Origin: Methanobacteriota archaeon
Lineage (GTDB): Archaea > Thermoplasmatota > Poseidoniia > Poseidoniales > Thalassarchaeaceae
Direction of reading: 5' to 3'
DNA: 64,000 nt
NCBI GenBank assembly: GCA_016845345.1
Contig: JAERSV010000029.1
Coordinates: 24,917-88,916, forward strand
Made by a program: the position numbers and the translations under genes. Under the pieces are notes generated by a model. That model saw nothing but the letters and a program-made list of their open reading frames with translations, had not been told where the DNA came from and did not search any database. Shown piece by piece: positions 475 to 40,941 of this stretch (position 1 is its first letter; each line of letters begins with the position of its first letter).

Positions 475-1473
475 TCACTCTCCATATATCTCACTCATCT
501 CGATGAATAGTTGAAATCCAGGGGTTGCCATAAATTCCTGTAGTTTATCGTCAGGTATAGTTCCCAATTCTTGATTCACCATATTGAAGAATTTTTTACG
601 AGTTGCAGTTGTTGTTGAACTAGCAGCAGCCCCAACTCTCTCAAATAATTTGAAGTTTTTAGATGAAATGAAATCATTGATGAAATCTTCTGGCATATCA
701 CCTAATAAGTTATTCACAACATCGAAGAAGTCACTGAAATTCTGATCTTCGTCTTCATCTTCATCGTCTTCAATTTCTTCTTGGGCATCGTACTCCTCAA
801 GTTCGGAATAATCGATATCGCCTGCAAGTACACCCTTCAACAATTTCCGTTCATCTACCATCGGTTTTAGGAGATTACCAAATTTAGCGATTGCAGCCTG
901 CTTCTTCTTTGATTTTGCAGCATCAAATTTCTTTTTCAGTGGACGCATTTCTGATTCTAATTCAGTAAGGCGTTCTTGAACATCTACCATCTCCTCATCT
1001 TCTTCTCCAGCATCCGAGGAGTCTTCAGGAACCGACAGTAATTCGACAACAGGAGCGGAATCTCTTGTGGTTTCTTTTTCAGATTTTCTCATCACGATTA
1101 TTTCTCTATCTAAATCATGTCCAAATCTGTCAGCATATCGCTCTAGAAGACTACCCACATCACTGGAGCCTAAACGATCAATGTGGCCATACATTTGTTG
1201 TAGGGATTTATCGGTTCTATTTTGCCACATATCAGCATAATTGGGATCCTCTTCCCCCTCTTCAATGACCTCTATGACTTCTACCTCGACCTCTTCGACA
1301 ACAGGTTCCTGGATTTCTGCTGGGAGTGGTTCACTCGGCGGAGTAGGGGCTGGAGGCAGTGGCATAGCCATTTCTGGTGATGGTGGAGGTGGTAAATCCC
1401 CAGGTGGAGGGGGTAAGGTAGGGGAACTTGCTGGCACACTTGCGTCGTTCTTCTTCCTCTTGCGAAACGCCAT
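475..1473 (-). CDS. hypothetical acidic protein with N-terminal MAFRKRKK and poly-proline tract
   Basis: Long ORF 475..1506. ATG at 1473 is preceded by GGGTGAGGG (SD-like), giving MAFRKRKKNDASVPASSPTLPPPPGDLPPPPSPEMAMPLPPAPTPPSEPLP, then very acidic sequence. No family recognised. Confidence 0.6.
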   Translation of the reverse strand: MAFRKRKKNDASVPASSPTLPPPPGDLPPPPSPEMAMPLPPAPTPPSEPLPAEIQEPVVEEVEVEVIEVIEEGEEDPNYADMWQNRTDKSLQQMYGHIDRLGSSDVGSLLERYADRFGHDLDREIIVMRKSEKETTRDSAPVVELLSVPEDSSDAGEEDEEMVDVQERLTELESEMRPLKKKFDAAKSKKKQAAIAKFGNLLKPMVDERKLLKGVLAGDIDYSELEEYDAQEEIEDDEDEDEDQNFSDFFDVVNNLLGDMPEDFINDFISSKNFKLFERVGAAASSTTTATRKKFFNMVNQELGTIPDDKLQEFMATPGFQLFIEMSEIYGE

Positions 1474-1561
1474 GCCCTCACCCTGTTGATACATGGTGAC
1501 AAACAATCTGCCTTTAACATTGGCTTAATTTGAAAAACTCAGACCACGTAGTTTTACTACG

Positions 1562-3135: not shown

Positions 3136-3993
3136 ATGAGTAGTGAAGAACGGGTTGTGCGAGTAGGACATTCTCCTGACCCAGATGATGCATTTATGTT
3201 TCATGCATTAACAACAGGGATAATTGACACGCCCGGATTTAAATTTGAGCATGTTCTATTAGATATTGAAACCCTTAACAAAAAAGCAAATGCTGAAGAA
3301 TATGAGGTCAGTGCTGTCAGTATCCACGCATTTCCTGAAATCTCAGATAAATATTCACTGATGAATTGTGGTGCAAGCATGGGTGAAGGGTATGGGCCAA
3401 TGCTCGTTAGTTCTAATCCCATGACTTTGCAAGAGGCTTGTACTAAACCGATTGCAATACCTGGACTAAAGACATCAGCACATTTAGCACTGAAAATGGC
3501 TGTTGGGAATGTTGAGACAGTTATTGTTCCCTTTGACGAAATTATGCCGCGTATTCAGAACGGTGAATTTGCTAGTGGGGTCATCATCCATGAAGGACAG
3601 TTGACTTGGGAATCACATGGAATGAATCTCATATTAGATTTAGGTATTTGGTGGAATGAAAGAACAAATGGCCTACCTCTACCTTTGGGCGGTAATGTAG
3701 TCAGAAAGGATTTAGGTCCAAAATTGTGTGAACAAATTACTGATTGGGTAAAACAAAGCATTGAGATTGCAATACTAAATCCGAATGAAGCATTAGAGTT
3801 TGCAAGGCAATGGGGTAGAGGAATAGACGAAGAAACAAACTCAAAATTTATTCAAATGTATGTCAATTCACGAACTATAGATTTTGGCGATGATGGAAGG
3901 GAAAGCATTGTGAAATTCCTAACTGAAGGTAAAGAAATTGGAATGATTAACAAAGATTTTGACCCGAGTTCAATCGAATTTATTGGTGCGTAA
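3136..3993 (+). CDS. mqnD: 1,4-dihydroxy-6-naphthoate synthase (MqnD, futalosine pathway)
   Basis: VRVGHSPDPDDAFMFHALTTGIIDTPGFKFEHVLLDIETLN matches the MqnA/MqnD (VitK2 biosynthesis) family N-terminus in its MqnD-like form. ATG at 3136 chosen because the longer ORF from 2971 overlaps the opposite-strand gene. Confidence 0.8.
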   Translation: MSSEERVVRVGHSPDPDDAFMFHALTTGIIDTPGFKFEHVLLDIETLNKKANAEEYEVSAVSIHAFPEISDKYSLMNCGASMGEGYGPMLVSSNPMTLQEACTKPIAIPGLKTSAHLALKMAVGNVETVIVPFDEIMPRIQNGEFASGVIIHEGQLTWESHGMNLILDLGIWWNERTNGLPLPLGGNVVRKDLGPKLCEQITDWVKQSIEIAILNPNEALEFARQWGRGIDEETNSKFIQMYVNSRTIDFGDDGRESIVKFLTEGKEIGMINKDFDPSSIEFIGA

Positions 3994-3995
3994 TT

Positions 3996-4487
3996 ATGTC
4001 AAGTGAAAATAATGATGAGAATAAACCCCAAGACAAAGAATATGATTCAATTGATCCAGCACCGCCTAGCAAAATTAGGTCAATAGATGAATTAAAAACG
4101 GTGCTTTGCAACGAAAATGGCAGAATGTTTCTCCGAATGCGTGCCTTATTTACCCTGAGAAACATTGGTGGACCAGAAGCAATCGATGCTCTTGCCTCTA
4201 GTTTTGGAAGTGCTTCTGTACTTCTAAAGCATGAAGTCGCCTACGTCTTAGGACAGATGCAGGATAGTTATGCCATAGACGCTTTAATTGAGAGGTTGGC
4301 AGACCCAAATGAAGACTCAATTGTTCGTCACGAAGCAGCAGAGGCATTAGGCGCGATCGGGGATACTCGTTCATTGGGAGTGCTAAAACAATATCTAAAT
4401 GATGACTGTGTCGTGGTTTCAGAATCATGTGAAGTTGCACTCGATTTGTTAGAATGGACAAGTAACGACTCGTTAGAATATGAGTGA
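3996..4487 (+). CDS. HEAT-repeat protein resembling one half of deoxyhypusine hydroxylase (DOHH)
   Basis: RMRALFTLRNIGGPEAIDAL...LLKHEVAYVLGQMQD...IVRHEAAEALGAIGD...VVSESCEVALDLLEW. Two His-Glu motifs lie 33 residues apart (H79-E80, H112-E113). Start is 3 nt after the mqnD stop. Confidence 0.8.
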   Translation: MSSENNDENKPQDKEYDSIDPAPPSKIRSIDELKTVLCNENGRMFLRMRALFTLRNIGGPEAIDALASSFGSASVLLKHEVAYVLGQMQDSYAIDALIERLADPNEDSIVRHEAAEALGAIGDTRSLGVLKQYLNDDCVVVSESCEVALDLLEWTSNDSLEYE

Positions 4488-4541: not shown

Positions 4542-6917
4542 ATGAAGAAAAGCCCGGCCGCTTTCTTTGGGATTTTCTTGTGCAGCGCTTTAATGTTCTC
4601 TTCTGTTCCACTTTTGCCCGAAGTTAGTGCTGGGACTGAAGAAAATTACCCCTTTAGCGGCACTCTTCTAAACCCTTATTCCTTATCTGGGTCGTCAGAA
4701 ATAACATATTCAACTGATGGAACTTTAATTGCTGCTGCTTTTAACTCAGATGTTGTAATTATCAACACTCAGTATCGGACATTTATCAAGGATATTAGTA
4801 TTGGAAATAAAATTTTGTCTCTTGCATTTTCTGATGATGATTCTGCATTACTAGTCGGACTAGAAAGCCCATTCATGAGTACATTGGCCATGGCCATATA
4901 TGACACTACAACATGGGAAAGAATAGGGGTTAATGAAGATGGTAGAGAAGTAAGTGATATATCATTACTTCCAAGTACAGCAATTTTCGCTTCAGCGAAT
5001 GAAAATAATGGAGTTTCAGAATATTATATCAATGACTCGACTTATGCAATATCAACTTATGATGACGAACATACTACTGATGTTACCTGTTTGGACCATT
5101 CGCCAAACGGACAACAATTAGTAACTGGGGGGAAAGATGGAAACATCAACCTATGGAATAGAAGTTCTGCACAAGTTGACGTATCTTGGCAGGTTGGATT
5201 CAGTATTACTGATTGTTCAATTTCTCCTGATGGAAACCAATTAGCTTGGATTACCAATTCTCTTTTGCAAGTACGGACAGTTCCAGAAGGTGAATTCATA
5301 ACTACTCTGAACTTAATTGGCGATGCCTTTCAATTAGAGTGGGCTGAAAATGGCCAAGAATTATGGGTATTGGTTGAATCTTCAGCAGATATACTGAGTA
5401 TTTTCAATACTACAGATTATACAACTATTCAGACATTTGAATTGGGTCACCAAGTCACAAAATTTGCAAAATCACCTACGGCCTCTGAGTTTATTGTTAC
5501 AACAAATACAGGTATTCTAACTGTCTTTAGAGAAGATGCTTGGGGACCATACTATGGGTTAGTAGGTTCAGATATTGATGGCGATGGTACGCCCGATATC
5601 TATGATGGCGATGATGATGGTGATGGATTAGGTGATGATTTCGAATTTTCTTGCGAAGAGGGAAATGATTGTCACACCTATCCCGACCCAGATTTAATCA
5701 GGCAGGTTTCGATTACCATCAACAAAAACAAAATTACGATTCAAGATAGATATCAAATGAATTCAAGTATGAGTGCACCGATTCGTGAATTAGCCTCCTC
5801 AGCCGTTGCATCAGATGGATATGTTAGCCAAGGAGAAGCAATAAAAATGGAACGAATGTTCTGTAGTGGAACAAATGCTAATCAAATCAGTTCGGATTGG
5901 AACAAGGCAGTAAAATTTGACCATTCCGCCATCATTGGTACTACTGTCCGCTGTGATGCAAAATTAGGTTTGATAGACACTGAAAAACATGACTCGAGAA
6001 CGCGAATAGAATTACGTTGGTTTATTGAAATTACTTTAGCAAACAACGTCGATAGGCCATTCAACATGACCTTGGACCCTTCAGTATCCCCTCCTTTGCA
6101 CACAGTGGTTCAAAATGTTCCAACTTCACCGTTTACATTGACTTTAATTCACGAAGGGAAAACTGTGCATTATCAAACACCTATTCATGTAAATAGTCCG
6201 CAAATGTCTGTATCCGTACAGGCTTTACCAGAACCTGAGCCAACATTTTTCGATAATTCCCTGTCATGGTTAGAGAATAATTTTCTGATTCCATTAAGTG
6301 TGATCATTGTTTTATCATTGGTAATTGTTTTAGTAATCAGAAGAAAAAATGCATTATTATTCCAATTAGATGAAGATGAAGAAGACACTATTGAAGTTAC
6401 ATCTAGGAGAAGGTCGTCAAATAGAAACCAATCTCGCGATATAATGTCTTCAAGCGGTAGACCACAACCAGTCCAACGCCCTAAAGAAGGCACAAAGCGT
6501 AGGAAACAACCTGCAAAACGCCCGACATCAGAACCAGCAATTAGACGTGTTAGAAAGGTGCCTGGAACTGTCACACAAACGGGGGTTGCTCCGGAAGGAG
6601 AGGAATGGGACTATTCCGAACATGGTGCATACTGGGATAAGGACGACCCTGATTCAGCGGACCCATATAGAGAAGCACAAGAATTTCATGATGCAGAAAG
6701 TGCAATTTTAGAAATCGCTCAAGAAGTTGCATCGGAGCATGAGGAAAATGAGAATCAAGAAAATGACGAACAATTAGACTCTGAAATGGATGATGCGTTA
6801 TCTATGATCAAAAAAACAACAAAGTCGAAAACACGTAAACCCAAGAAAAACCCGGAAGATGTGACAAAGAAGGAAACCAAGAAAAGAAGAAAAGTAAAAC
6901 GTCGTAAATCGGATTAG
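4542..6917 (+). CDS. secreted, membrane-anchored WD40/beta-propeller protein with Asp-rich Ca-binding-like segment and long charged cytoplasmic tail
   Basis: Signal peptide MKKSPAAFFGIFLCSALMFSSVPLL. About 7 propeller-like repeats (e.g. VTCLDHSPNGQQLVTGGKDGNINLWN). DIDGDGTPDIYDGDDDGDGLGDD segment. TM helix FLIPLSVIIVLSLVIVLVIRRKN, then about 190 aa of K/R- and D/E-rich tail. Confidence 0.75.
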   Translation: MKKSPAAFFGIFLCSALMFSSVPLLPEVSAGTEENYPFSGTLLNPYSLSGSSEITYSTDGTLIAAAFNSDVVIINTQYRTFIKDISIGNKILSLAFSDDDSALLVGLESPFMSTLAMAIYDTTTWERIGVNEDGREVSDISLLPSTAIFASANENNGVSEYYINDSTYAISTYDDEHTTDVTCLDHSPNGQQLVTGGKDGNINLWNRSSAQVDVSWQVGFSITDCSISPDGNQLAWITNSLLQVRTVPEGEFITTLNLIGDAFQLEWAENGQELWVLVESSADILSIFNTTDYTTIQTFELGHQVTKFAKSPTASEFIVTTNTGILTVFREDAWGPYYGLVGSDIDGDGTPDIYDGDDDGDGLGDDFEFSCEEGNDCHTYPDPDLIRQVSITINKNKITIQDRYQMNSSMSAPIRELASSAVASDGYVSQGEAIKMERMFCSGTNANQISSDWNKAVKFDHSAIIGTTVRCDAKLGLIDTEKHDSRTRIELRWFIEITLANNVDRPFNMTLDPSVSPPLHTVVQNVPTSPFTLTLIHEGKTVHYQTPIHVNSPQMSVSVQALPEPEPTFFDNSLSWLENNFLIPLSVIIVLSLVIVLVIRRKNALLFQLDEDEEDTIEVTSRRRSSNRNQSRDIMSSSGRPQPVQRPKEGTKRRKQPAKRPTSEPAIRRVRKVPGTVTQTGVAPEGEEWDYSEHGAYWDKDDPDSADPYREAQEFHDAESAILEIAQEVASEHEENENQENDEQLDSEMDDALSMIKKTTKSKTRKPKKNPEDVTKKETKKRRKVKRRKSD

Positions 6918-7708
6918 ATTTCTAACCATTGAATATCTGTGTCAGAACCACACACTTCAGTTAGGAATAATTCTAATCCCTGAACCGAATCATCGCTAAG
7001 GATGTTCGTTACTTCGCTGAAATAATCGGTAATCCTCTCATCTGAAAATCCACTTCTAATTACTGTGTTATGAATAACATCATCTTTTGTTTTCTTGTCA
7101 TCTCTGAACTTCTGTGCATTGTGCAATAAATCATGATGGGCTTGTTTCAATTTATCCACAGGTGCTGAGACAGGTGCGGCAAACACCCCAAAGACCATAG
7201 GTAATTGTGTCTGTTTATACCACTCTTCTCCAAGGTCCATTTTTATTAATTCCGGGTTCCTCTGTGCTTCGTCTAGAGCTCGGTCTCCAATCAACAATGC
7301 GGCATCACATTTGGATAGCATTTCAGATAAATCTGGGCCCATATCAACTGTTTTAGGGTCTAAACCCAATTGAGCCAAGAGGTACAATACCAATTTTTTT
7401 GATGTTGATGAATCAGTTGGTAAGGCTATATCCCTAATTTTATGTAATTCTCTTTTACTGAATAACAACACACTACCAACTGCACCAACTGATGCTATTC
7501 CTATGTCTGGGAGTAATATTAACTCAGAAGAATTTGCTGCGTAATCAGCGGCAGGAATTGGAGCAACAAGACAATCTCTGCGTAGTAAATGACCAGTTAA
7601 CCAAGCAGGTGGGGCAGGTAAAATAGACCAGTGTTGGGACAAATTATGAAATAATGGGTCACAATTCACAAAAGATACCCGTCCGATTATATCAGACCAA
7701 TTAACCAA
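6914..7708 (-). CDS. mqnA: chorismate dehydratase (MqnA, futalosine pathway)
   Basis: MqnA/MqnD family periplasmic-binding-like fold: GRVSFVNCDPL..., LPTDSSTSKKLVLYLL, CDAALLIGDRAL, DLGEEWYKQTQLPMVFGVF. Adjacent to a radical-SAM mqn gene. Confidence 0.75.
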   Translation of the reverse strand: MVNWSDIIGRVSFVNCDPLFHNLSQHWSILPAPPAWLTGHLLRRDCLVAPIPAADYAANSSELILLPDIGIASVGAVGSVLLFSKRELHKIRDIALPTDSSTSKKLVLYLLAQLGLDPKTVDMGPDLSEMLSKCDAALLIGDRALDEAQRNPELIKMDLGEEWYKQTQLPMVFGVFAAPVSAPVDKLKQAHHDLLHNAQKFRDDKKTKDDVIHNTVIRSGFSDERITDYFSEVTNILSDDSVQGLELFLTEVCGSDTDIQWLEI

Positions 7709-7722
7709 TACAATCTCCCCCT

Positions 7723-8952
7723 CTAAATAGAAATCATCGGCAATCCATTATTATCCGGTGGGTTTTGTCTACGAAAATTCCTAAATTGTGTATAATCAGT
7801 ATTTCTTTCAACTGCGATTCCACCCACAGACTCAATCAGTGTTGCTAAGTCAATATCAAGGTGGTCTAATGGTGCATCCGACCCTGCTAGATGCATGATT
7901 TCTTCGTGACTAACGGTCCCGTCTATATCATCAGCCCCGCTTAGTAAAGCCAAGGCAGAAATATGGTCCCCTATGTTCATTCTATATGCTTTGATATGAG
8001 GAATGTTGTCTAACATAATTCGAGAGATTGATATCATTCTCAATATTTCATTTGAGGTAGCTAGTTGTGCTTCTGGCAATCTTGAAGCATCAGGTAAATA
8101 TGGGTATGGGACAAAACATTGGAATCCATTTGTTTCATCTTGTAATTTTCGCAACTTATCAAGGTGAATCATTCTGTGAAGTGTTGTTTCAACTGTTCCA
8201 AACAACATAGTGCAATTTGTAGGAATATTGAGTTGGTGAGCAGTCTTGTGAATTTCTATGTACTCATCTGATGATTCTTTGCCTCTGCAAATTATATCTC
8301 TAATTTCATCGACAAGGATTTCTGCGCCGCCGCCAGGAATTGAATTCAATCCGGCATTGTGTAGTCTTGAAATTGTCTCGGAAATTGTTAGATTAGAAAC
8401 CTCTGCAAGATGTTTAATTTCAACTGCTGTCAAAGCCTTGAGGCAAATATTTGGATACTGATTCTTGAATGCTGAAAATAAGCCTTCATAATATTCAATA
8501 TTCCATTCTGGGTGTAATCCCCCAACGGTGTGCACCTCAGTAATTATTTCAGAAAAAGGTGCAATTCTATCTAAGTAATCTTGAACCGATAAGGAATAAG
8601 CATCAGAGGCTTTTAATCCTCTTCGAAATGCACAAAACTTACACGCTAAGACACAAACATTTGTTTGGTTAACATGTAAATTTCTATTATAGAAAACTGA
8701 ATTCCCATATCTGTTTTGTTTTAAAAAATTTGCAACATTCGAAAGTGTAGGAAGGTCACACTTATCATGTAGAATGACCCCTTCCTCAGTAGAAATTCTT
8801 TCACCTGAAAGAACTTTGTTTAGAATCATTCTAATATCTTCATTCAGTGATTCTGGTAATTGAATGAGAGAGGGTAAGGGTTGCTCAATCGCAGACTCAT
8901 TAGAGGGTACATTTATGGTACCCCGCCATTGGAACGGTGACTCTATATGCAT
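7723..8952 (-). CDS. radical SAM enzyme of the MqnE/MqnC/CofH family (probable aminodeoxyfutalosine synthase)
   Basis: NRNLHVNQTNVCVLACKFCAF carries the CxxxCxxC cluster motif in the context typical of MqnE/MqnC. Lies 15 nt upstream of mqnA on the same strand. Confidence 0.8.
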   Translation of the reverse strand: MHIESPFQWRGTINVPSNESAIEQPLPSLIQLPESLNEDIRMILNKVLSGERISTEEGVILHDKCDLPTLSNVANFLKQNRYGNSVFYNRNLHVNQTNVCVLACKFCAFRRGLKASDAYSLSVQDYLDRIAPFSEIITEVHTVGGLHPEWNIEYYEGLFSAFKNQYPNICLKALTAVEIKHLAEVSNLTISETISRLHNAGLNSIPGGGAEILVDEIRDIICRGKESSDEYIEIHKTAHQLNIPTNCTMLFGTVETTLHRMIHLDKLRKLQDETNGFQCFVPYPYLPDASRLPEAQLATSNEILRMISISRIMLDNIPHIKAYRMNIGDHISALALLSGADDIDGTVSHEEIMHLAGSDAPLDHLDIDLATLIESVGGIAVERNTDYTQFRNFRRQNPPDNNGLPMISI

Positions 8953-20306: not shown

Positions 20307-21329
20307 CTACTCTGAGATAGTTAGGTTCTTCCAGTACTCTTCAGGTACTTCTTGGGATAATCTTAGTGCGCCCATTGCCCCTAATCTCACAGGGTCTTCT
20401 ACGATGTGTACAGTGATACCACCTAAGTCTGCTAGCCTTTCTTCAATTGAAGCGCCTAAACCCCTGATACCAGAACCACCACCAGCTAGAATGATGTTTT
20501 GACGGAATCCATCATGATACTCTGGATTTGACTCGGCAATGAGTGATTTCAAATTGTCAACAATTGGGTTGATAATTGATTCACATGCTGAAGAAATACA
20601 ATCAGTGATATCTAGAGACATTGCCTTCCCATCAATTGAGAAGTCAACCACAACGGGGTCCTTAGGTGGCGAAGTATGAGTGAATGAGAATTGTTCTTTC
20701 CACCGTCGAGCCATATCCTTGGTGATTTGTGCTCCAACATACTTTCGCTGGACGGCTTCAATAAGTGCCGCATCAATTGCGTCTCCTGCCTGGTTAATGT
20801 GCAATTGGTCTTCTGGGCGCGGTATCGTACCATATACTCGGCAGATATCTGTTGTCCCTGCTCCAATATCCACAACCATTGTATGGTCAAGCATGTCAAG
20901 AGCATAAGCAACTGCAAAAGGTTCTGAAATAATCATACAGGCGTTGACAGTACCAGCAGCAGCATCGAAAATTGCAGTTTTATCAACGTGACTAGCCTCG
21001 GCTGGAGCGCCGATTACCGCAACAACTCTGTCATATTCTTCAGGGTCTGCCAAATTCATCATATGATTGATGAAATGAGCAATGAATTTTTTATCTTCAG
21101 GTGTATCCTTGATTACACCGTGTTCCAGAGGGCGATAAAGGTTCAAGGCTAGCCTGTTTTTCAAGGCCTCTTCTCCGAATAAAACATCCCTGCGAAGGAA
21201 GTTTTTTGCTATGGAATCCTTTGGTGTACCTATCACAGTTAGCACTTGTTCTTCGTGTTTATCATTAGAAACCATGACCGACCTAAACGTACCTAAGTCA
21301 ACACCGATGTAAAGAGTCTCGTTCGCCAT
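20307..21329 (-). CDS. actin-like ATPase, MamK-type
   Basis: Actin-fold phosphate-1 GVDLGTFRS, phosphate-2 VVDIGAGTTDICRVYGTIPRPEDQ, adenosine motif ILAGGGSGIRGL, and C-terminus GALRLSQEVPEEYWKNL. Collinear with my recollection of MamK. ATG at 21329 is preceded by GGTGA; alternative ATG at 21347. Confidence 0.8.
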   Translation of the reverse strand: MANETLYIGVDLGTFRSVMVSNDKHEEQVLTVIGTPKDSIAKNFLRRDVLFGEEALKNRLALNLYRPLEHGVIKDTPEDKKFIAHFINHMMNLADPEEYDRVVAVIGAPAEASHVDKTAIFDAAAGTVNACMIISEPFAVAYALDMLDHTMVVDIGAGTTDICRVYGTIPRPEDQLHINQAGDAIDAALIEAVQRKYVGAQITKDMARRWKEQFSFTHTSPPKDPVVVDFSIDGKAMSLDITDCISSACESIINPIVDNLKSLIAESNPEYHDGFRQNIILAGGGSGIRGLGASIEERLADLGGITVHIVEDPVRLGAMGALRLSQEVPEEYWKNLTISE

Positions 21330-21406
21330 TGTATTCACCGTTATCATTGCTCCGAAGGGGACGGTATATCAATAATCCCTAACATTGGTTTGCAAAGTCT
21401 ATTGAT

Positions 21407-23575: not shown

Positions 23576-23658
23576 ATCGCCCCTAATCAACACGGCGGCT
23601 CAAAAGAATTCTAATTACAATAGCAATTGACTTCATGGAGTTCCTTTTCGGGATAAAC

Positions 23659-24474
23659 ATGCAAGGGCCCATCATCATCAAATTTGGAGGCGGGCTTATC
23701 ACGGTTAAGGACAAATTATGTACTCCAAAAATAGCCATAATCCATAATCTCGCCAAATCTGTTCAACATTTAGTAAACATAGATAAACGGGTAATTATTG
23801 TTCATGGCGCTGGTAGTTTTGGCCATTTAAGGGCTAAATCTTGGAAACTTCATGAAGGAAGGACAAATGAAGGTTTACCAAAAGAAGATGATTTGTCTAC
23901 CCAAGATGAAGCTGTAGAATCCGTCCGACAAGATATGCAACATCTTAATCAACTGGTTGTTGAAGAATTCAATAAACTAGGGATTGAAACGGTTACTCAC
24001 CCACCCCATGAATGGGCTACTGGCACAGGTTCAAACTTTTCTGGGGAACTACACCAGTTCAATTTAGATGGAGAAAAGGTCCACATCACATATGGAGACG
24101 TGGTTGATTGCAATAATGAGAAGGAATTTGGTATTCTAAGCGGGGATGATATTTGCTATAGACTAGCAACAGAACTTAAGGCGACCCACATGATTTTCGC
24201 TATGGGTGGTGCACCTGGTGTAATGTCATCACCACCATCAGAACCATCTTCCGAACTAATTCCAATTTGGTCTAAATATAAACAATTTGAGGCAATTCAT
24301 CAATCAGAAATTGATGTCACAGGGGGAATACACCTCAAACTAACCGTAGCAGATAAAATCTCAAAAATAGTTCCTATGGTGTGGATTGTTGATGGAGAGT
24401 GCCCAGAACGTATTGTTCAAGTTGTCTTAAATAACGAATCATATGGTACAAGGATAATCCCTGAATCTCCGTAG
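23659..24474 (+). CDS. isopentenyl phosphate kinase
   Basis: Amino-acid-kinase fold: IIIKFGGGLITVKD, VIIVHGAGSFGH, ITYGDVV. ATG at 23659 (MQGPIIIKFGG). Confidence 0.8.
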   Translation: MQGPIIIKFGGGLITVKDKLCTPKIAIIHNLAKSVQHLVNIDKRVIIVHGAGSFGHLRAKSWKLHEGRTNEGLPKEDDLSTQDEAVESVRQDMQHLNQLVVEEFNKLGIETVTHPPHEWATGTGSNFSGELHQFNLDGEKVHITYGDVVDCNNEKEFGILSGDDICYRLATELKATHMIFAMGGAPGVMSSPPSEPSSELIPIWSKYKQFEAIHQSEIDVTGGIHLKLTVADKISKIVPMVWIVDGECPERIVQVVLNNESYGTRIIPESP

Positions 24475-24533: not shown

Positions 24534-26222
24534 ATGAGCGAGAACAGTCCATTCCTTGGTGAACAATATGATGAATCACAAAGCGAAATGATGAGTGAGA
24601 TGGTAATCTTAGTTGATGAAAATGATCAACAAATTGGCTCCATGTCTAAGGTAGACAGCCATCTGGGTGAAGGTGCGCTTCACCGGGCTTTTAGTGTATT
24701 ATTGTTCAATTCTTCACAAAAAATGTTGATTCAAAAAAGAGCAGATACCAAGATTACATTCCCATCGGTGTGGGCTAACTCCTGTTGTAGTCATCCTCTT
24801 GACGTCGAGGGTGAAACAGAAATGGAGGATGACCTTGGAGTCAAGCGCGCTGCCATTCGCAAGATGGAGCAAGAACTTGGAATTTCTTCGGACCAGTTGC
24901 CGATTGATGATTTTCATCTGATTACAAGAATGCATTATAGAGCACGAGCTGATGAGAAATGGATTGAACATGAATTAGACCATATTCTGCTAATTCAAGC
25001 AGATGTTGATTTGAATATTAATCCAAACGAAATCTCTGAAATTCGTTGGGTTAATCAAACGCAGATAGAGGATTTAATCTCAAATTCACCTGATAACGGT
25101 GAAATTATTGCCCCTTGGTTTAATGAAATATACTCCAGATATGCGTCTCAATGGTGGGGTCATCTTGATGAGGTGAGTTCTCTTCAAGACAATGTGGTTC
25201 ACCATATTGGGGATGTTGAGACCAGCGAACACTCATCCTTACTTGATGCACTCAAAGGGCATGCAACGGAAGTTGAAAGCAGAATAATTACCGCACTTGA
25301 AAAATCAAACCATGAACGTTTGAAGAAGGCAATGATGCATCTCATCGAAGGAGGTGGAAAGCGCCTTCGTGCAATACTACCATGGCTTGTCGCTGATGCT
25401 TGTGGTGGTTCATCTGATTCATTGTATGACTTGGGAGCAGCCATAGAAATCATCCATAATTTCACCCTCATTCACGACGATATCATGGATAATGATGAAA
25501 TGAGGAGGGGAAGAGATGCTGTACACATAGCATATGATATGCCCACCGCAATCAACGCAGGAGATGCAATGTTAGCAGTTTCTTTTGAATTATTGAGTGA
25601 GGCAGAAGAAATTTCGTCAGACAAATTCCGTTCTTTAGTTTCAATAATTGGTAAGATGGTACGCAAGGTATCTGAAGGCCAACAATTGGACATGGATTTT
25701 GAGAATAGAGATTTTGTTAGTGAAAAAGAATACTTGACTATGATCTCCGGAAAAACGGCTGCCATGTTCACAACTTGTGCAAGAACCGGTGCAATTCTTT
25801 CAGGTGCTACTCCCGATGTCATTGAGAATCTTGCTGATTGGGGTGAAAACCTCGGACTTTGCTTTCAATTAATGGATGATTTAATCGATGCCACGGGTGA
25901 TAGTGAAACTCTTGGGAAACCTGCTTGTAGTGATGTAGTAGAAGGGAAAAGAACACTGATTGCGATTCATGCACTGGGATTAGAACCGAGTAATCTTCCA
26001 ACATTCCACGAAGTATTTTCCTCTAGAAATGAAGACACACCGCGGGAAACACTTGATGAAGTTCTCAGTGAATTACAGGCTTCCGGCTCAATTGATTATG
26101 CTAAGGACAGAGCAATGAGCTTCCATCAAAAGGCACATGCCTGCCTAGACAAATTACCAGATTCACCAGCCTTGTCAATATTAAGACAATTAACAGACTG
26201 GCAACTCATCAGAATTTCCTGA
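24534..26222 (+). CDS. fusion protein: type 1 isopentenyl-diphosphate isomerase (N) + geranylgeranyl/polyprenyl diphosphate synthase (C)
   Basis: N-half Nudix-type IDI: HRAFSVLLFNSSQKMLIQKRADTKITFPSVWANSCCSHP, WIEHELDH. C-half trans-prenyltransferase: first Asp-rich motif LIHDDIMDNDEMRRGR, second FQLMDDLID. One uninterrupted 562-aa ORF. Confidence 0.85.
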   Translation: MSENSPFLGEQYDESQSEMMSEMVILVDENDQQIGSMSKVDSHLGEGALHRAFSVLLFNSSQKMLIQKRADTKITFPSVWANSCCSHPLDVEGETEMEDDLGVKRAAIRKMEQELGISSDQLPIDDFHLITRMHYRARADEKWIEHELDHILLIQADVDLNINPNEISEIRWVNQTQIEDLISNSPDNGEIIAPWFNEIYSRYASQWWGHLDEVSSLQDNVVHHIGDVETSEHSSLLDALKGHATEVESRIITALEKSNHERLKKAMMHLIEGGGKRLRAILPWLVADACGGSSDSLYDLGAAIEIIHNFTLIHDDIMDNDEMRRGRDAVHIAYDMPTAINAGDAMLAVSFELLSEAEEISSDKFRSLVSIIGKMVRKVSEGQQLDMDFENRDFVSEKEYLTMISGKTAAMFTTCARTGAILSGATPDVIENLADWGENLGLCFQLMDDLIDATGDSETLGKPACSDVVEGKRTLIAIHALGLEPSNLPTFHEVFSSRNEDTPRETLDEVLSELQASGSIDYAKDRAMSFHQKAHACLDKLPDSPALSILRQLTDWQLIRIS

Positions 26223-28576: not shown

Positions 28577-29734
28577 TTAAACAGCAGGATAAACAGTGGG
28601 TTTCATCATATCATCTAGAATTGCTTGAAACTCAGAATTAATTGACATAATTTTATCTTTTGTGTGAGCGATTTGTTTAACAATAATTTGACGAGCATTT
28701 GAACTTGATTTGTTTAGTTGGCTTCGCTTATCATCCAAAAATCTCAATGCTTCCCTCATCGCTGAAATACATTCATTGCTTCTAGTTTCAAACATACTCA
28801 TGGTGCTTTCAGAATGTTGTTTTTCAGATTTACTGGCAATTTTTGAATAGGATGTTCTCATTTTTGCTGTTTCAATTGACGCTGTTGGTGTCCTTTTTAG
28901 ATTGGAATTAAATTTGACGAGAGACCAAGCCCTAATCCACCACTTAGAAGGGTCCCAGTGCCACCATCTAATCCCATTTCGATAATCTGCTTGGAATGCG
29001 TGGTGAAAGTTATGGTACCCCTCTCCGAAAGTGAAGAAGGCAAGCCATTGGGAATCTTTGCTACTATTGTTAATTGTATAGGATTGTTTACCCCAGACAT
29101 GAGCCGCGGAATTAATCAAAAAAGTGCCATGGTGGACAAACACTGTTCGGACCAGCCCTCCCCAAACAAAACCCCCGATTGCAGTAGGTATGCCACCAAT
29201 CGCATAACCAACTAGTGCGGGCGCTACCATACCTACCAAAAAGCCAATTGAAAAAATAAAACGATGTTGTAATCTAATAACCCAATCTTTTTGCAGGTCT
29301 CGAACATTGGAATAGTCTACCTTTCCATCATCTTCATCAATCAAAATCCAAAAGAAATGGCTCCACCAAAATCCTCTGGAAGCATTATACGGGTCACCTT
29401 CTTTATCGGTTTCTTTGTGGTGCCTACGATGATCGCTACACCATTCTAAAATTGAATTTTGAAAAGCACCCGCTCCAAATAGAGCATACAAAATTCTTAG
29501 TGGTAAAATGGCTTGATGGCTTCGGTGGGAAAATAACCTGTGGTAACCAACAGTAATGGATAAGCCGCATGCGAAGTACCAAACGAAAAAAATGCTTAGT
29601 TCAACCCATGTTATTCCATAAGTCACACCATGCCATATTGAGCCAATAAGTGCCAACACAGGTGTCAAAACGAGAAAAATTGTGTTAATCCAATTCAACT
29701 TTATTGGATCTTTGGTTTCAATTGTATTAGACAT
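28577..29734 (-). CDS. acyl-CoA (delta-9 type) fatty-acid desaturase, membrane bound
   Basis: Three histidine boxes HRLFSHRS, HRRHH and HNFHHAF with 4 TM helices, plus about 100 aa of C-terminal coiled-coil-like extension. Confidence 0.85.
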   Translation of the reverse strand: MSNTIETKDPIKLNWINTIFLVLTPVLALIGSIWHGVTYGITWVELSIFFVWYFACGLSITVGYHRLFSHRSHQAILPLRILYALFGAGAFQNSILEWCSDHRRHHKETDKEGDPYNASRGFWWSHFFWILIDEDDGKVDYSNVRDLQKDWVIRLQHRFIFSIGFLVGMVAPALVGYAIGGIPTAIGGFVWGGLVRTVFVHHGTFLINSAAHVWGKQSYTINNSSKDSQWLAFFTFGEGYHNFHHAFQADYRNGIRWWHWDPSKWWIRAWSLVKFNSNLKRTPTASIETAKMRTSYSKIASKSEKQHSESTMSMFETRSNECISAMREALRFLDDKRSQLNKSSSNARQIIVKQIAHTKDKIMSINSEFQAILDDMMKPTVYPAV

Positions 29735-40158: not shown

Positions 40159-40941
40159 ATGCGAGTCATTGTGCTGTCTTCGGGAGGTAAAGATTCGTGT
40201 TACTCTGTTTGGTGGGCTTTGATGAAAGGATGGGATGTTGCTGGCATCGTCACCATCAACATTACGGGAGAAGATTCAATGATGTTCCAAGTGCCTGCAA
40301 CTTCAATCGCAGGCTTGCAGGCTAGTTCAGGAAATATTCCATGGTTACAAGTTAATGTGAGCGGAGATGAGAATACTGAAATTGCTGAACTTGAGTCTGT
40401 TTTAAAACCAATAATAGAAGGGAAGAATTCCCAAAACTCTGAGGGAAATTTGACGAGCCAAGAACTGTCAGAATTTTTCCCTTACACGTTGAATATTACA
40501 CACCCAATTGCCAAACTTGTGCCAAATGAAACCATAGATGCAATTGTCACGGGTGCATTACGGAGTGATTACCAAAAAACTAGGATTGAACAAATGGCAC
40601 AACGACTGGGCGTCAAGTCATTTTGCCCACTTTGGCATCATGATGCACAAAATCATATGCGAGACCTCGTGAATCATGGATTTGAACTAATATTTAGTTC
40701 GGTTTCTTGTGAGGGTTTAGACCAGAATTGGGTCGGAAAAACACTTGATAGTAAGAGTTTGAAGGAATTAGAATTACTTGCTCAACAACACCGTTTTTCA
40801 GTTGATGGGGAGGGTGGTGAGTTTGAAACCACGGTTCTAAACAGCCCCTGGATGAATAAAAAAATCAACATTAAGGGGGAGAGAGTTTGGTCAGGACTTC
40901 GAGGTCATTTATTGATTCAAGAGGTTAGTTTTGCTGAGTAA
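40159..40941 (+). CDS. PP-loop ATPase of the MJ0570 / diphthine-ammonia ligase (Dph6) family
   Basis: MRVIVLSSGGKDSCYSVWWA (SGGKDS PP-loop), GALRSDYQKTRIEQMAQRLGVKSFCPLW, GEGGEFETTVL. Contains about 40 aa of insertion relative to what I recall for MJ0570. Confidence 0.75.
   Translation: MRVIVLSSGGKDSCYSVWWALMKGWDVAGIVTINITGEDSMMFQVPATSIAGLQASSGNIPWLQVNVSGDENTEIAELESVLKPIIEGKNSQNSEGNLTSQELSEFFPYTLNITHPIAKLVPNETIDAIVTGALRSDYQKTRIEQMAQRLGVKSFCPLWHHDAQNHMRDLVNHGFELIFSSVSCEGLDQNWVGKTLDSKSLKELELLAQQHRFSVDGEGGEFETTVLNSPWMNKKINIKGERVWSGLRGHLLIQEVSFAE

What the first reader, a model, noticed from the sequence alone, without database searches (positions are those of the whole stretch)
3996..4487. Half-size deoxyhypusine hydroxylase (DOHH) homologue in an archaeon
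What the sequence shows:
- A 163-aa ORF starts 3 nt after the mqnD stop.
- It reads SIDPAPPSKIRSIDELKTVLCNENGRMFLRMRALFTLRNIGGPEAIDALASSFGSASVLLKHEVAYVLGQMQDSYAIDALIERLADPNEDSIVRHEAAEALGAIGDTRSLGVLKQYLNDDCVVVSESCEVALDLLEW.
- From my memory of the human and yeast enzymes, this is almost collinear with one half of eukaryotic DOHH/Lia1. The shared elements are RALFTLRN, LLKHE.AY.LGQMQD, MVRHEA.EALGAIG and ESCEVAL.
- It also has a DPAPP segment like the linker that precedes the eukaryotic C-terminal half.
- Both His-Glu metal motifs are present (H79-E80 at 4230..4235, H112-E113 at 4329..4334). They are 33 residues apart, the same spacing as within each eukaryotic half.

Why it matters:
- Eukaryotic DOHH is a roughly 300-aa pseudo-dimer of two 4-HEAT-repeat halves that jointly bind a di-iron centre.
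- This ORF is a single half, so a homodimer would be required.
- To my knowledge no DOHH orthologue is established in archaea, although some archaea carry fully hydroxylated hypusine on aIF5A.
- It could therefore be the missing archaeal hydroxylase, an ancestral single-unit form of the eukaryotic enzyme, or both.
Basis: partly seen in the sequence, partly recalled or inferred. Interest (0 to 1): 0.78.

Follow-up and report, generated by a model that had tools for sequence, protein, structure and literature searches.

The report
Half-size deoxyhypusine hydroxylase in marine archaea
A small, well-conserved gene in an abundant group of ocean archaea encodes exactly one half of the eukaryotic enzyme that completes the hypusine modification of translation factor 5A, so these archaea probably make that enzyme as a dimer of two identical halves, although the hypusine field states that archaea have no such enzyme.

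Summary
Window 3996..4487 (+) encodes a 163-aa protein with two His-Glu motifs 33 residues apart.

- **Homology.** Its best solved-structure match is human deoxyhypusine hydroxylase (DOHH, 4d4z). Both halves match equally (116 bits each, E about 1e-32). The best natural non-DOHH HEAT protein scores 23 bits.
- **Not a fragment.** About a hundred homologues of 147-164 aa in marine metagenomes and Poseidoniales (Marine Group II) genomes keep the same length, all catalytic residues and the same neighbours. Against the L005 orthologue dN/dS is about 0.12.
- **Archaeal host.** The window carries PriS, TiaS and a diphthamide synthase.
- **Position between the halves.** Over a gap-free 109-residue core, the archaeal protein is about 51% identical to eukaryotic N-halves and to C-halves. 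Those halves are 43% identical to each other.
- **Pathway.** Published supplementary tables report deoxyhypusine synthase in 97-99% of MGII genomes. One MGII genome lists the synthase, aIF5A and this gene.

Best reading (0.62): a homodimeric di-iron DOHH that hydroxylates deoxyhypusine on aIF5A, resembling the pre-duplication form of the enzyme.

Automatic KEGG/IMG labels already call it DOHH, but I found no paper discussing it. Iron binding, dimerisation and activity are untested. It does not explain hypusine in Crenarchaeota.

The parts
3996..4487 (+). Gene for the 163-aa half-size DOHH homologue (stop codon included)
   Evidence: ORF. The identical protein P0001 is in public data. The best PDB match is human DOHH, with both halves aligned. 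It is under purifying selection: pN 0.10-0.30 with saturated synonymous sites.
4041..4067 (+). N-terminal lead Y16-D-S-I-D-P-A-P-P24, the counterpart of the eukaryotic inter-half linker Y-x-S-V-DPAPP
   Evidence: It aligns to human 148-156 and to the linker of every eukaryotic C-half. S18, D20, P21, A22 and P23 are invariant in 25 archaeal sequences.
4083..4166 (+). HEAT-like helical hairpin 1 (residues 30-57; contains RMRALFTLRN)
   Evidence: Helices 30-37 and 44-57 in the AlphaFold model, pLDDT 96-98.
4170..4256 (+). HEAT-like hairpin 2 (residues 59-87), carrying His-Glu motif 1 and Gly86
   Evidence: Helices 59-71 and 75-87. Pfam HEAT_PBS/HEAT_2.
4230..4235 (+). His79-Glu80, aligned with human H56-E57 and H207-E208 (iron ligand His; substrate-binding Glu)
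   Evidence: Alignments. Invariant in the family. Residue roles come from PMC9117371.
4251..4253 (+). Gly86, aligned with the human Gly of LGQMQD / LGQLQH that is implicated in substrate binding
   Evidence: PMC9117371 lists 'G65' and G214; by my count of the recalled human sequence the N-half glycine is G63.
4266..4358 (+). HEAT-like hairpin 3 (residues 91-121), carrying His-Glu motif 2
   Evidence: Helices 91-102 and 108-121.
4329..4334 (+). His112-Glu113, aligned with human H89-E90 and H240-E241 (both are iron ligands)
4365..4463 (+). HEAT-like hairpin 4 (residues 124-156; contains ESCEVALDLLEW)
   Evidence: Helices 124-132 and 139-156. S144, C145, E146, V147, A148 and D150 are invariant.
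4473..4481 (+). C-terminal tail L160-E161-Y162, aligned with the F-Q-Y of the eukaryotic C-terminus
   Evidence: Alignment. Y162 is invariant.
3136..3993 (+). Context only: the upstream MqnD-family gene. Its stop lies 2 nt before the ATG of the DOHH-like gene, so co-transcription is likely.
   Evidence: Pfam VitK2_biosynth. The same adjacency occurs in L002-L005 and in an independently annotated MGII genome.

Best explanation
The gene encodes a single-unit deoxyhypusine hydroxylase. Each 163-aa chain is one arm of four HEAT-like hairpins carrying two His-Glu motifs. Two identical chains would pair around a two-fold axis, as the N- and C-halves of eukaryotic DOHH pair around a pseudo-two-fold axis. 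Four His and two to four Glu would then hold a di-iron centre at the interface. [quoted passage not shown]

What is shown: the homology, conservation of all catalytic and substrate-binding positions, a genuine half length, an archaeal host, purifying selection, and a sequence position midway between the two eukaryotic halves.

What is inferred: homodimerisation, iron binding, the substrate, and the view that this form resembles the ancestor that was duplicated and fused in eukaryotes.
For: - **Specific match to DOHH.** Both halves of human DOHH match at 116 bits each. The next natural HEAT proteins score 23 bits or less.
- **Catalytic residues.** H79, E80, G86, H112 and E113 align with the human iron ligands and substrate-binding residues. 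They are invariant in 25 archaeal sequences that are 61-89% identical to the window protein. Residue roles come from PMC9117371.
- **Genuine half length.** 102 of the best 120 database hits are 147-164 aa. Orthologues in Poseidoniales contigs L002-L005 have the same length and neighbours. The window holds no second copy, and Tully 2019 lists a single gene cluster for this KO. That argues for a homodimer rather than a heterodimer.
- **Selection.** pN is 0.10-0.30 against pS 0.74-0.80; dN/dS is about 0.12 against L005.
- **Intermediate position.** Core identity is 50.5% to N-halves and 51.5% to C-halves, against 43% between N and C. With 91 diverse DOHHs, Kimura distances are 0.92 and 0.86 against 1.17. 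The archaeal clade is monophyletic (83-87% bootstrap) and sits between the N and C groups.
- **Structure.** The tandem model has pLDDT 87.7 and pTM 0.85. It superposes on 4d4z at TM 0.90-0.91, while every other HEAT structure gives TM 0.54 or less.
- **Pathway present.** DHPS is in 97-99% of 250 MGII genomes and this KO in 75-78%. One MGII genome lists DHS next to AdoMet decarboxylase, plus aIF5A and this 480-nt gene beside mqnD.
- **Oxygen.** The window also encodes an O2-dependent fatty-acid desaturase, and cytochrome c oxidase is on the MGII core list.
Against: - No biochemical evidence exists. Iron binding, dimerisation and activity are untested.
- The confident structural model used 18 eukaryotic DOHH rows in its alignment, so it is effectively a homology model. 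The same tandem folded without an alignment was poor (pLDDT 61.7). I had no coordinates, so I could not measure His/Glu geometry.
- I could not retrieve any Marine Group II aIF5A or DHS sequence. Their presence, and the modifiable lysine, rest on other authors' annotation tables.
- Early amino-acid analyses found mainly deoxyhypusine, not hypusine, in Euryarchaeota including Thermoplasmatales, the cultured relatives of this group.
- The gene is embedded in a menaquinone (futalosine) gene cluster, not next to aIF5A or DHS.
- The KO is called in only 75-78% of MGII genomes. That may reflect incomplete MAGs or real absence.
Confidence: 0.62

Rival explanations
1. It is a di-iron oxygenase with the DOHH active site but a different substrate. 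One candidate is a step linked to menaquinone or quinone metabolism, given its fixed place between mqnD and mqnA/mqnC. Another is a different protein-bound or free polyamine.
For: The gene starts 3 nt after mqnD and lies within mqnD - X - (WD40) - mqnA - mqnC/E in the window, in L002-L005 and in SIMO Bin 19-2. In L003 the four genes are directly adjacent. No aIF5A or DHS lies within the 64-kb window or within 10 kb in related loci.
Against: From general knowledge of the pathway, the futalosine route (MqnA, E, B, C, D, then prenylation, decarboxylation and methylation) needs no hydroxylase. The whole region from PriS to DXS is collinear across these genomes, so the linkage may simply be inherited. 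The residues that bind the deoxyhypusine chain in human DOHH (E57/E208 and the LGQ glycines) are invariant here. About 50% identity to an enzyme with a single known substrate argues for the same substrate.
Confidence: 0.15
2. This rival concerns origin and is compatible with the proposed function. The gene is not ancestral. It is a eukaryotic DOHH C-half, acquired by horizontal transfer into an ancestor of Marine Group II and cut down to one unit.
For: The archaeal protein carries the Y-x-S-V-DPAPP lead and the aromatic C-terminal tail that in eukaryotes belong only to the C-half. A profile of the archaeal family scores C-halves at about 160 bits against about 130 for N-halves. About 50% identity to eukaryotic sequences is high for an archaeon-eukaryote pair. 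The distribution in archaea is patchy, and no named hit came from Thermoplasmatales, Crenarchaeota or Asgard archaea in the lists I saw.
Against: Across the 109-residue core the archaeal proteins are as close to N-halves (50.5%) as to C-halves (51.5%), and closer to each than N is to C (43%). A post-LECA C-half derivative should resemble C at about the C-C level (59%) and N at about 43%. Signature residues are mixed: LLKHE and EALGAIGD are N-like, ESCEVALD is C-like. In NJ trees the archaeal clade lies outside a monophyletic group of 87 N-halves and outside the group that holds all C-halves, not inside either. The extra C-half score comes from the lead segment, which a pre-duplication unit would also have had.
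Confidence: 0.2
3. It is a non-catalytic HEAT-repeat scaffold or adaptor of the PBS-lyase/NblB/'taxis protein F' kind, as Prokka, eggNOG and NCBI annotate it.
For: Pfam finds only HEAT_PBS (65 bits) and HEAT_2 (60.6 bits). The best NCBIfam rows are NblB, CpcE and CpeY. NCBI names relatives 'HEAT repeat domain-containing protein', and Prokka named one 'HEAT repeat-containing taxis protein F'.
Against: The NCBIfam scores are a tenth of the family cut-offs (32.5 against 300). The similarity to DOHH is five times stronger than to any natural PBS-type protein. Both metal-binding His-Glu pairs and the DOHH-specific flanks are invariant under strong purifying selection.
Confidence: 0.04
4. It is an artefact: a truncated or split gene, a pseudogene, or eukaryotic contamination of an archaeal bin.
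For: One related locus (L006, labelled Acidobacteria) does look like a mis-binned eukaryotic contig carrying an intron-split full-length DOHH.
Against: In the window the gene is intact and sits between archaeal genes on one contig: PriS, MqnD, TiaS and a diphthamide synthase. The identical protein occurs on an independent assembly. Lengths of 156-164 aa recur in nearly all the half-size homologues. No adjacent second half exists in any of L002-L005.
Confidence: 0.01

Closest known systems
Eukaryotic deoxyhypusine hydroxylase (human DOHH, PDB 4d4z/4d50; yeast Lia1; EC 1.14.99.29; KEGG K06072)
   Same: It is about 50% identical to each half over a gap-free 109-residue core. It has the same two His-Glu motifs per four-hairpin arm at the same 33-residue spacing, and the same LGQMQD glycine, RALFxLRN, VRHEAAEALG and ESCEVALD blocks. 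It also has the same Y-x-S-V-DPAPP segment and aromatic C-terminal tail. A tandem of the protein models onto 4d4z at TM 0.90-0.91.
   Different: It has one arm per polypeptide (163 aa, 4 hairpins, 2 His-Glu motifs) instead of two fused arms (about 300 aa, 8 hairpins, 4 motifs). The active enzyme would therefore have to be a symmetric homodimer with the metal site on the two-fold axis. The DPAPP segment is a free N-terminal lead rather than a linker. The host is an archaeon, and the gene lies in a menaquinone cluster.
PBS-lyase HEAT-like repeat proteins (CpcE/CpcF, CpeY, NblB, E. coli YibA, M. thermautotrophicus MTH187; Pfam PF03130) and the synthetic alphaRep proteins derived from them
   Same: The repeat type and periodicity are the same. 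Some members, such as MTH187 (131 aa), have a similar small size.
   Different: They have no paired His-Glu metal motifs in the DOHH register. Natural members score only 19-23 bits. NCBIfam equivalog scores are about 10% of the cut-offs. They form continuous solenoids rather than a two-arm dyad: TM is 0.54 or less and rmsd over 9 Å against the model.
A second, unnamed family of half-size HE-motif HEAT proteins in DPANN archaea (Aenigmarchaeota, Woesearchaeota-like) and a 'Halobacteria archaeon' MAG (P0270-P0280, P0308; L007 9863..10429)
   Same: These proteins are 117-168 aa with four hairpins and two VRHE[AS/C] motifs. Their best hits outside the family are eukaryotic DOHHs, and IMG labels some of them 'deoxyhypusine monooxygenase'.
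   Different: They are only 37-42% identical to the window protein. The His-Glu motifs are 32 rather than 33 residues apart. They lack the DPAPP lead, the LGQMQD block (they read LGELGD) and the ESCEVALD block. No genomic context is shared.
Homodimer-to-fused-pseudodimer enzyme pairs (for example retroviral versus pepsin-type aspartic proteases); an analogy from general knowledge
   Same: A single unit contributes half of a catalytic centre that lies on a symmetry axis. The larger relative is a tandem duplication and fusion of that unit.
   Different: The fold and chemistry are unrelated. The analogy says nothing about membership.

Membership tests
Deoxyhypusine hydroxylase (DOHH/Lia1) | Specific sequence similarity to DOHH, well above that to generic HEAT/PBS-lyase repeat proteins | tested here: met
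   The protein scores 115.7 and 116.0 bits against the two halves of 4d4z, versus 23 bits or less for CpcE, MTH187 and YibA. Full-length DOHHs are 42-53% identical.
Deoxyhypusine hydroxylase (DOHH/Lia1) | His-Glu motif pair within each four-hairpin arm, in register with H56-E57/H89-E90 and H207-E208/H240-E241 | tested here: met
   H79-E80 and H112-E113 are 33 residues apart and align without gaps to both human pairs. They are invariant in 25 family members. Motif definition from PMC9117371.
Deoxyhypusine hydroxylase (DOHH/Lia1) | Conserved substrate-binding residues (Glu of the HE motifs and the Gly of LGQ[ML]Q) | tested here: met
   E80, E113 and G86 are aligned and invariant.
Deoxyhypusine hydroxylase (DOHH/Lia1) | Eight HEAT repeats and four His-Glu motifs in one polypeptide of about 300 aa (a symmetrical dyad of two arms) | tested here: not met
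   The polypeptide is 163 aa with four hairpins and two motifs. Nearly all the half-size homologues are 156-164 aa, and no second half lies adjacent in L002-L005. The feature could be met only at the level of a homodimer.
Deoxyhypusine hydroxylase (DOHH/Lia1) | Two arms pack as a dyad that brings the four His-Glu sites together | tested here: inconclusive
   The tandem model has pLDDT 87.7 and pTM 0.85 and superposes on 4d4z at TM 0.90-0.91 with rmsd 3.3 Å. It was built with eukaryotic DOHH rows in the alignment. The single-sequence model was poor. No multimer prediction or coordinates were available.
Deoxyhypusine hydroxylase (DOHH/Lia1) | Binds two iron atoms per active unit and activates O2 | not testable with these tools
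   This needs purified protein (metal analysis, Mössbauer or UV-vis detection of the peroxo-diiron species).
Deoxyhypusine hydroxylase (DOHH/Lia1) | Hydroxylates deoxyhypusine on (a/e)IF5A | not testable with these tools
   This needs an enzyme assay or mass spectrometry.
Deoxyhypusine hydroxylase (DOHH/Lia1) | Co-occurs with deoxyhypusine synthase and IF5A in the same genome | tested here: inconclusive
   Neither is in the window or in L001-L007. Published tables list DHS, aIF5A and this gene in MGII genome SIMO Bin 19-2, and DHPS in 97-99% of 250 MGII genomes. I never saw those sequences or the target lysine.
PBS-lyase HEAT-like repeat proteins (Pfam PF03130) and phycobilin lyase/NblB equivalogs | Repeat-level match to HEAT_PBS | tested here: met
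   HEAT_PBS scores 65 bits against a cut-off of 20.9. DOHH itself carries the same Pfam repeat hits, so this match does not discriminate.
PBS-lyase HEAT-like repeat proteins (Pfam PF03130) and phycobilin lyase/NblB equivalogs | Reaches the curated equivalog score of CpcE, CpeY, NblB or PRK09687 | tested here: not met
   Scores are 32.5, 26.7, 22.9 and 19.4 bits against cut-offs of 300, 330, 600 and 275.

The most novel reading that the evidence does not exclude
The Marine Group II protein is a living representative of the pre-duplication, homodimeric DOHH. In this reading, hydroxylation of deoxyhypusine arose in oxygen-exposed archaea as a symmetric half-size di-iron enzyme. Eukaryotes later duplicated and fused that unit into today's two-arm enzyme. 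The half-size gene would also make some archaea true hypusine producers, contrary to the standing statement that archaea have no DOHH.
Probability: 0.35. Interest if true: 0.85.

Novelty: new variant of a known kind. Interest (0 to 1): 0.72.

Why it matters
Papers and reviews from 2016 to 2021 state that no DOHH orthologue exists in archaea, and they treat archaeal hypusine formation as unsolved. Here is an unmistakable DOHH relative in one of the most abundant archaeal groups of the surface ocean.

Three questions become directly testable:
- Do any archaea make hypusine by the eukaryotic chemistry?
- Can the DOHH di-iron site be built by a symmetric homodimer? That would give a minimal 163-aa model for an enzyme targeted by ciclopirox and deferiprone.
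- Did the eukaryotic enzyme arise by duplication and fusion of such a unit?

The limits are clear. The family does not account for hypusine in Sulfolobus and other Crenarchaeota. KEGG/IMG pipelines already attach the DOHH label. What is new is the recognition of the half-size architecture, its intermediate sequence position, and the gap between the databases and the literature.

Tried and rejected
- **DHS and aIF5A in the held sequence.** I searched with human DHS (recalled from memory and validated against PDB) and human eIF5A. tblastn and phmmer found nothing in the window or in L001-L007.
- **An MGII aIF5A sequence.** I used the last protein-database search on the aIF5A found in L008. All 120 listed hits were DPANN (Woesearchaeota-type) proteins and none was Marine Group II. 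No MGII aIF5A sequence was obtained.
- **Genome-collection scan.** I ran it with the single protein rather than an alignment.
- **Representative-library search.** Full-length DOHHs and giant HEAT proteins filled the list of 150. Half-size relatives scoring below about 170 bits could not be seen.
- **Structure attempts.** The single-sequence tandem model was too poor to use. An alignment mixing the tandem with single halves came out mis-registered, so I discarded it.
- **Genomic context of the DPANN/halobacterial family.** aIF5A lies 4.3 kb away in L008, but nothing similar appears in L010, L012 or L013. I treat the L008 proximity as chance.
- **Bacterial DOHH.** I rejected this reading of L006. 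The gene is split over three frames like an intron-containing eukaryotic gene.
- **Promoter and terminator scan.** It found nothing above shuffled expectation, and it uses bacterial consensus sequences.
- **Park et al. 2006 (PMC1324997).** The paper is not held in the library.
Full report
**1. The observation**

The upstream ORF is an MqnD-family protein (Pfam VitK2_biosynth, E 3e-67). It ends with TAA at 3991..3993, so the two genes are separated by two bases. CAT GAA at 4230..4235 encodes H79-E80 and CAC GAA at 4329..4334 encodes H112-E113, 33 residues apart. The coordinates and motifs are therefore correct.

**2. Is the similarity to DOHH real and specific?**

Curated family libraries do not show the relationship.
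- Pfam reports only HEAT_PBS (65 bits) and HEAT_2 (60.6 bits).
- NCBIfam reports NblB, CpcE and CpeY at about one tenth of their cut-offs.

A direct comparison with all PDB sequences is unambiguous.
- Human DOHH (4d4z) is first at E 1.2e-68.
- Residues 30-156 align to human 12-138 (115.7 bits).
- Residues 11-155 align to human 144-288 (116.0 bits). This alignment includes Y-D-S-I-DPAPP opposite the human linker Y-L-S-V-DPAPP.
- Next come synthetic consensus alphaRep proteins. Natural PBS-type proteins (CpcE, MTH187, YibA) reach only 19-23 bits.

In the 5.8-billion-protein collection, full-length eukaryotic DOHHs are 42-53% identical to the query.

**3. Is it a fragment?**

No.
- Of the 120 best hits, 102 are 147-164 aa (65 of them exactly 159 aa). 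The other 18 are 260-286-aa DOHH-type proteins with two matching halves; those that carry a source name are from eukaryotes.
- The identical protein lies on an independently assembled contig with the same neighbours.
- In four genome contigs named Candidatus Poseidoniales or 'Methanobacteriota archaeon', the orthologue (56-85% identity) has the same length and the same position after mqnD (L002-L005).
- The window holds no second copy.
- Against the L002 and L005 orthologues, synonymous sites are saturated (pS 0.74-0.80) while pN is 0.10-0.30. dN/dS is about 0.12 against L005.
- Across 25 family members that are 61-89% identical to the window protein, several blocks are invariant: H79, E80, G86, H112, E113, the lead S18/D20/P21/A22/P23, RMRALFxLRN, VRHE-AEALGAIGD, SCEVA-DLL and Y162.

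**4. Host**

The window is archaeal. It encodes the small subunit of the archaeo-eukaryotic primase, TiaS agmatidine synthase, a diphthamide synthase, a class II prolyl-tRNA synthetase and an MreB/actin-like protein. Its closest relatives are Poseidoniales (Marine Group II) contigs. Named cluster members are 'Euryarchaeota archaeon' and 'Candidatus Thalassarchaeaceae archaeon' from marine samples, including Tara.

The organism looks aerobic. The window has an O2-dependent fatty-acid desaturase, and cytochrome c oxidase is on the published MGII core list.

**5. Relationship to the two eukaryotic halves**

I aligned 19 archaeal representatives with the separated N- and C-halves of 11 eukaryotic DOHHs. 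The alignment is gap-free over residues 44-152.

| Comparison | Mean identity over 109 columns |
|---|---|
| Archaeal vs N-half | 50.5% |
| Archaeal vs C-half | 51.5% |
| N-half vs C-half | 43% (42.8% within the same protein) |
| N-half vs N-half | 54% |
| C-half vs C-half | 59% |

With 91 diverse full-length representatives, the Kimura distances are 0.92 (archaeal-N), 0.86 (archaeal-C) and 1.17 (N-C). The archaeal protein is therefore closer to each half than the halves are to each other.

Signature residues are mixed. LLKHE and EALGAIGD are N-like. ESCEVALD, the DPAPP lead and the C-terminal L-E-Y tail are C-like.

In neighbour-joining trees the archaeal sequences form one clade (83-87% bootstrap). 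That clade attaches between a monophyletic group of 87 N-halves and the group containing all C-halves. Monophyly of N and of C has poor bootstrap support (under 10%), so the tree alone is weak evidence.

Taken together, the pattern fits a slowly evolving descendant of the unit that was duplicated. It does not fit a recently transferred C-half, which should resemble C-halves at about 59% and N-halves at about 43%. The higher profile score of C-halves (about 160 against 130 bits) comes from the lead segment.

**6. Structure**

- A head-to-tail tandem of the protein is collinear with eukaryotic DOHH, because the N-terminal lead takes the place of the linker.
- Folded alone, the tandem gave a poor model (pLDDT 61.7).
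- Folded with 18 eukaryotic DOHHs as the alignment, it gave pLDDT 87.7 and pTM 0.85. Each copy has eight helices (four hairpins) at pLDDT 96-98, and the second DPAPP segment is placed with moderate confidence.
- Foldseek places this model on 4d4z at TM 0.90-0.91 (target-normalised), rmsd 3.3 Å over about 290 columns and 44% identity. All other HEAT or armadillo structures give TM 0.54 or less.

This shows the sequence is compatible with the DOHH dyad. It is homology-driven, however, and no coordinates were available to measure the metal site.

**7. Pathway partners**

Neither DHS nor aIF5A is in the window or in the fetched Marine Group II loci. Published annotation tables fill the gap.
- In Damashek et al. 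2021 (PMC9723583), MGII genome SIMO Bin 19-2 lists deoxyhypusine synthase (K00809) next to S-adenosylmethionine decarboxylase.
- The same genome lists aIF5A (K03263) and a 480-nt gene between mqnA and mqnD. Prokka calls that gene 'HEAT repeat-containing taxis protein F' and KEGG calls it DOHH (K06072). It has some transcript signal.
- In Tully 2019 (PMC6336850), the 'MGII Core' sheet lists DHPS in 153/158 and 91/92 genomes, and 'DOHH' as a single gene cluster in 119/158 and 72/92 genomes.

I could not obtain an MGII aIF5A sequence to inspect the target lysine.

**8. What is known**

- Prunetti et al. 2016, Bassani et al. 2018 and a 2021 review all state that DHS is present in all archaea but that no DOHH orthologue has been found.
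- Hypusine itself was reported mainly in Crenarchaeota, and deoxyhypusine in Euryarchaeota including Thermoplasmatales.
- No paper in the searchable library contains both 'hypusine' and 'Marine Group II', or both 'deoxyhypusine hydroxylase' and 'Asgard'.

The family is thus labelled by automated pipelines and sits in supplementary tables. Its existence, half size and implications have not been discussed in anything I could find.

**9. Mechanism proposed**

Two identical four-hairpin arms would pair around a two-fold axis. H79 and H112 from each chain, with E113 (and possibly E80), would bind two iron atoms at the interface. O2 would form the peroxo-diiron species known from human DOHH. E80 and G86 would hold the deoxyhypusine chain of aIF5A for C2 hydroxylation. 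The residue roles are transferred from human DOHH. The invariant S-V-DPAPP lead, which in eukaryotes ties the arms together, may reach across to the partner chain; this last point is speculation.

Confidence in this explanation is 0.62.

**10. Rivals**

- **Another substrate (0.15).** The conserved position inside the futalosine cluster suggests this. But that pathway needs no hydroxylase (general knowledge), and the whole region is collinear across the order.
- **A eukaryotic C-half acquired by transfer and halved (0.20; concerns origin only).** The lead and tail suggest this. The equal distance to both halves argues against it.
- **A non-catalytic HEAT scaffold (0.04).**
- **An artefact (0.01).**

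**11. Wider distribution**

A second, more distant family of 117-168-aa proteins carries two VRHE motifs 32 residues apart. It occurs in Aenigmarchaeota- and Woesearchaeota-like DPANN archaea and in a 'Halobacteria archaeon' MAG. Its best hits outside the family are plant DOHHs. It lacks the DPAPP lead and several DOHH blocks, and it shows no consistent genomic link to aIF5A or DHS.

Half-size HE-motif HEAT proteins are therefore not confined to Marine Group II.

**12. Verdict**

- **Novelty:** a new variant of a known kind, namely a single-unit and presumably homodimeric DOHH in archaea.
- **Interest:** 0.72. It contradicts a repeated statement in the field and makes the evolution and minimal architecture of DOHH testable.
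- **Tempering factors:** there is no biochemical evidence, an automatic DOHH label already exists, and it does not explain crenarchaeal hypusine.

Noticed in passing
L006 6156..7224 (MNJR01000114.1, labelled 'Acidobacteria bacterium 13_1_20CM_3_53_8'): A full-length two-half DOHH-like gene is split over three ORFs in different frames (6156..6401, 6422..6715, 6802..7224). This looks like an intron-containing eukaryotic (fungal?) gene, so the contig is probably mis-binned eukaryotic DNA rather than evidence for a bacterial DOHH.
   Followed up: partly
L007 9863..10429; proteins P0270-P0280, P0308; loci L008, L010, L012, L013: This is a separate family of 117-168-aa HEAT proteins with two VRHE motifs 32 residues apart. 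It occurs in Aenigmarchaeota- and Woesearchaeota-like DPANN archaea and in a 'Halobacteria archaeon' MAG. Its nearest relatives outside the family are plant DOHHs, and IMG labels some members 'deoxyhypusine monooxygenase'.
   Followed up: partly
L008 3247..3648 and 8001..8354: In one Woesearchaeota-like contig, an aIF5A gene with the loop TSKSGKHGHAK lies 4.3 kb upstream of the half-size HE-HEAT gene. The proximity is not repeated in L010, L012 or L013, so it is probably chance.
   Followed up: yes
window 4542..6917 (+): This 791-aa protein has a signal-peptide-like N-terminus, WD40/beta-propeller domains, a transmembrane segment and a highly charged Lys/Glu-rich tail. It is inserted between the DOHH-like gene and mqnA. 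It is present in L002, L004 and L005 but absent in L003.
   Followed up: no
window 28577..29734 (-): A fatty-acid desaturase family protein (Pfam FA_desaturase) is encoded in an archaeon. It is an O2-dependent membrane di-iron enzyme, which is unexpected for organisms with isoprenoid lipids.
   Followed up: no
window 24534..26222 (+): A single 562-aa ORF fuses a NUDIX domain to a polyprenyl synthetase. It lies near an amino-acid-kinase family gene (23635..24474) that may be an isopentenyl phosphate kinase.
   Followed up: no
window 40159..40941 (+), 43520..44764 (-), 20307..21347 (-): The window also encodes other translation-related modification enzymes, namely a diphthamide synthase (Diphthami_syn_2) and TiaS, plus an MreB/actin-like protein.
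   Followed up: no
proteins P0218, P0243, P0231 (representative library): In some full-length DOHH-type proteins the half-specific signatures are swapped: the N-half reads LFRHE/LFKHE and the C-half reads LLKHE. Their linkers are also long and low-complexity. Their N-halves group with C-halves in the tree, so the N/C signatures are not universal.
   Followed up: no
window 475..1506 (-): A 343-aa protein has a proline-rich N-terminus and very acidic repeats. It is conserved next to the primase gene in L003-L005. I ran no family search on it.
   Followed up: no
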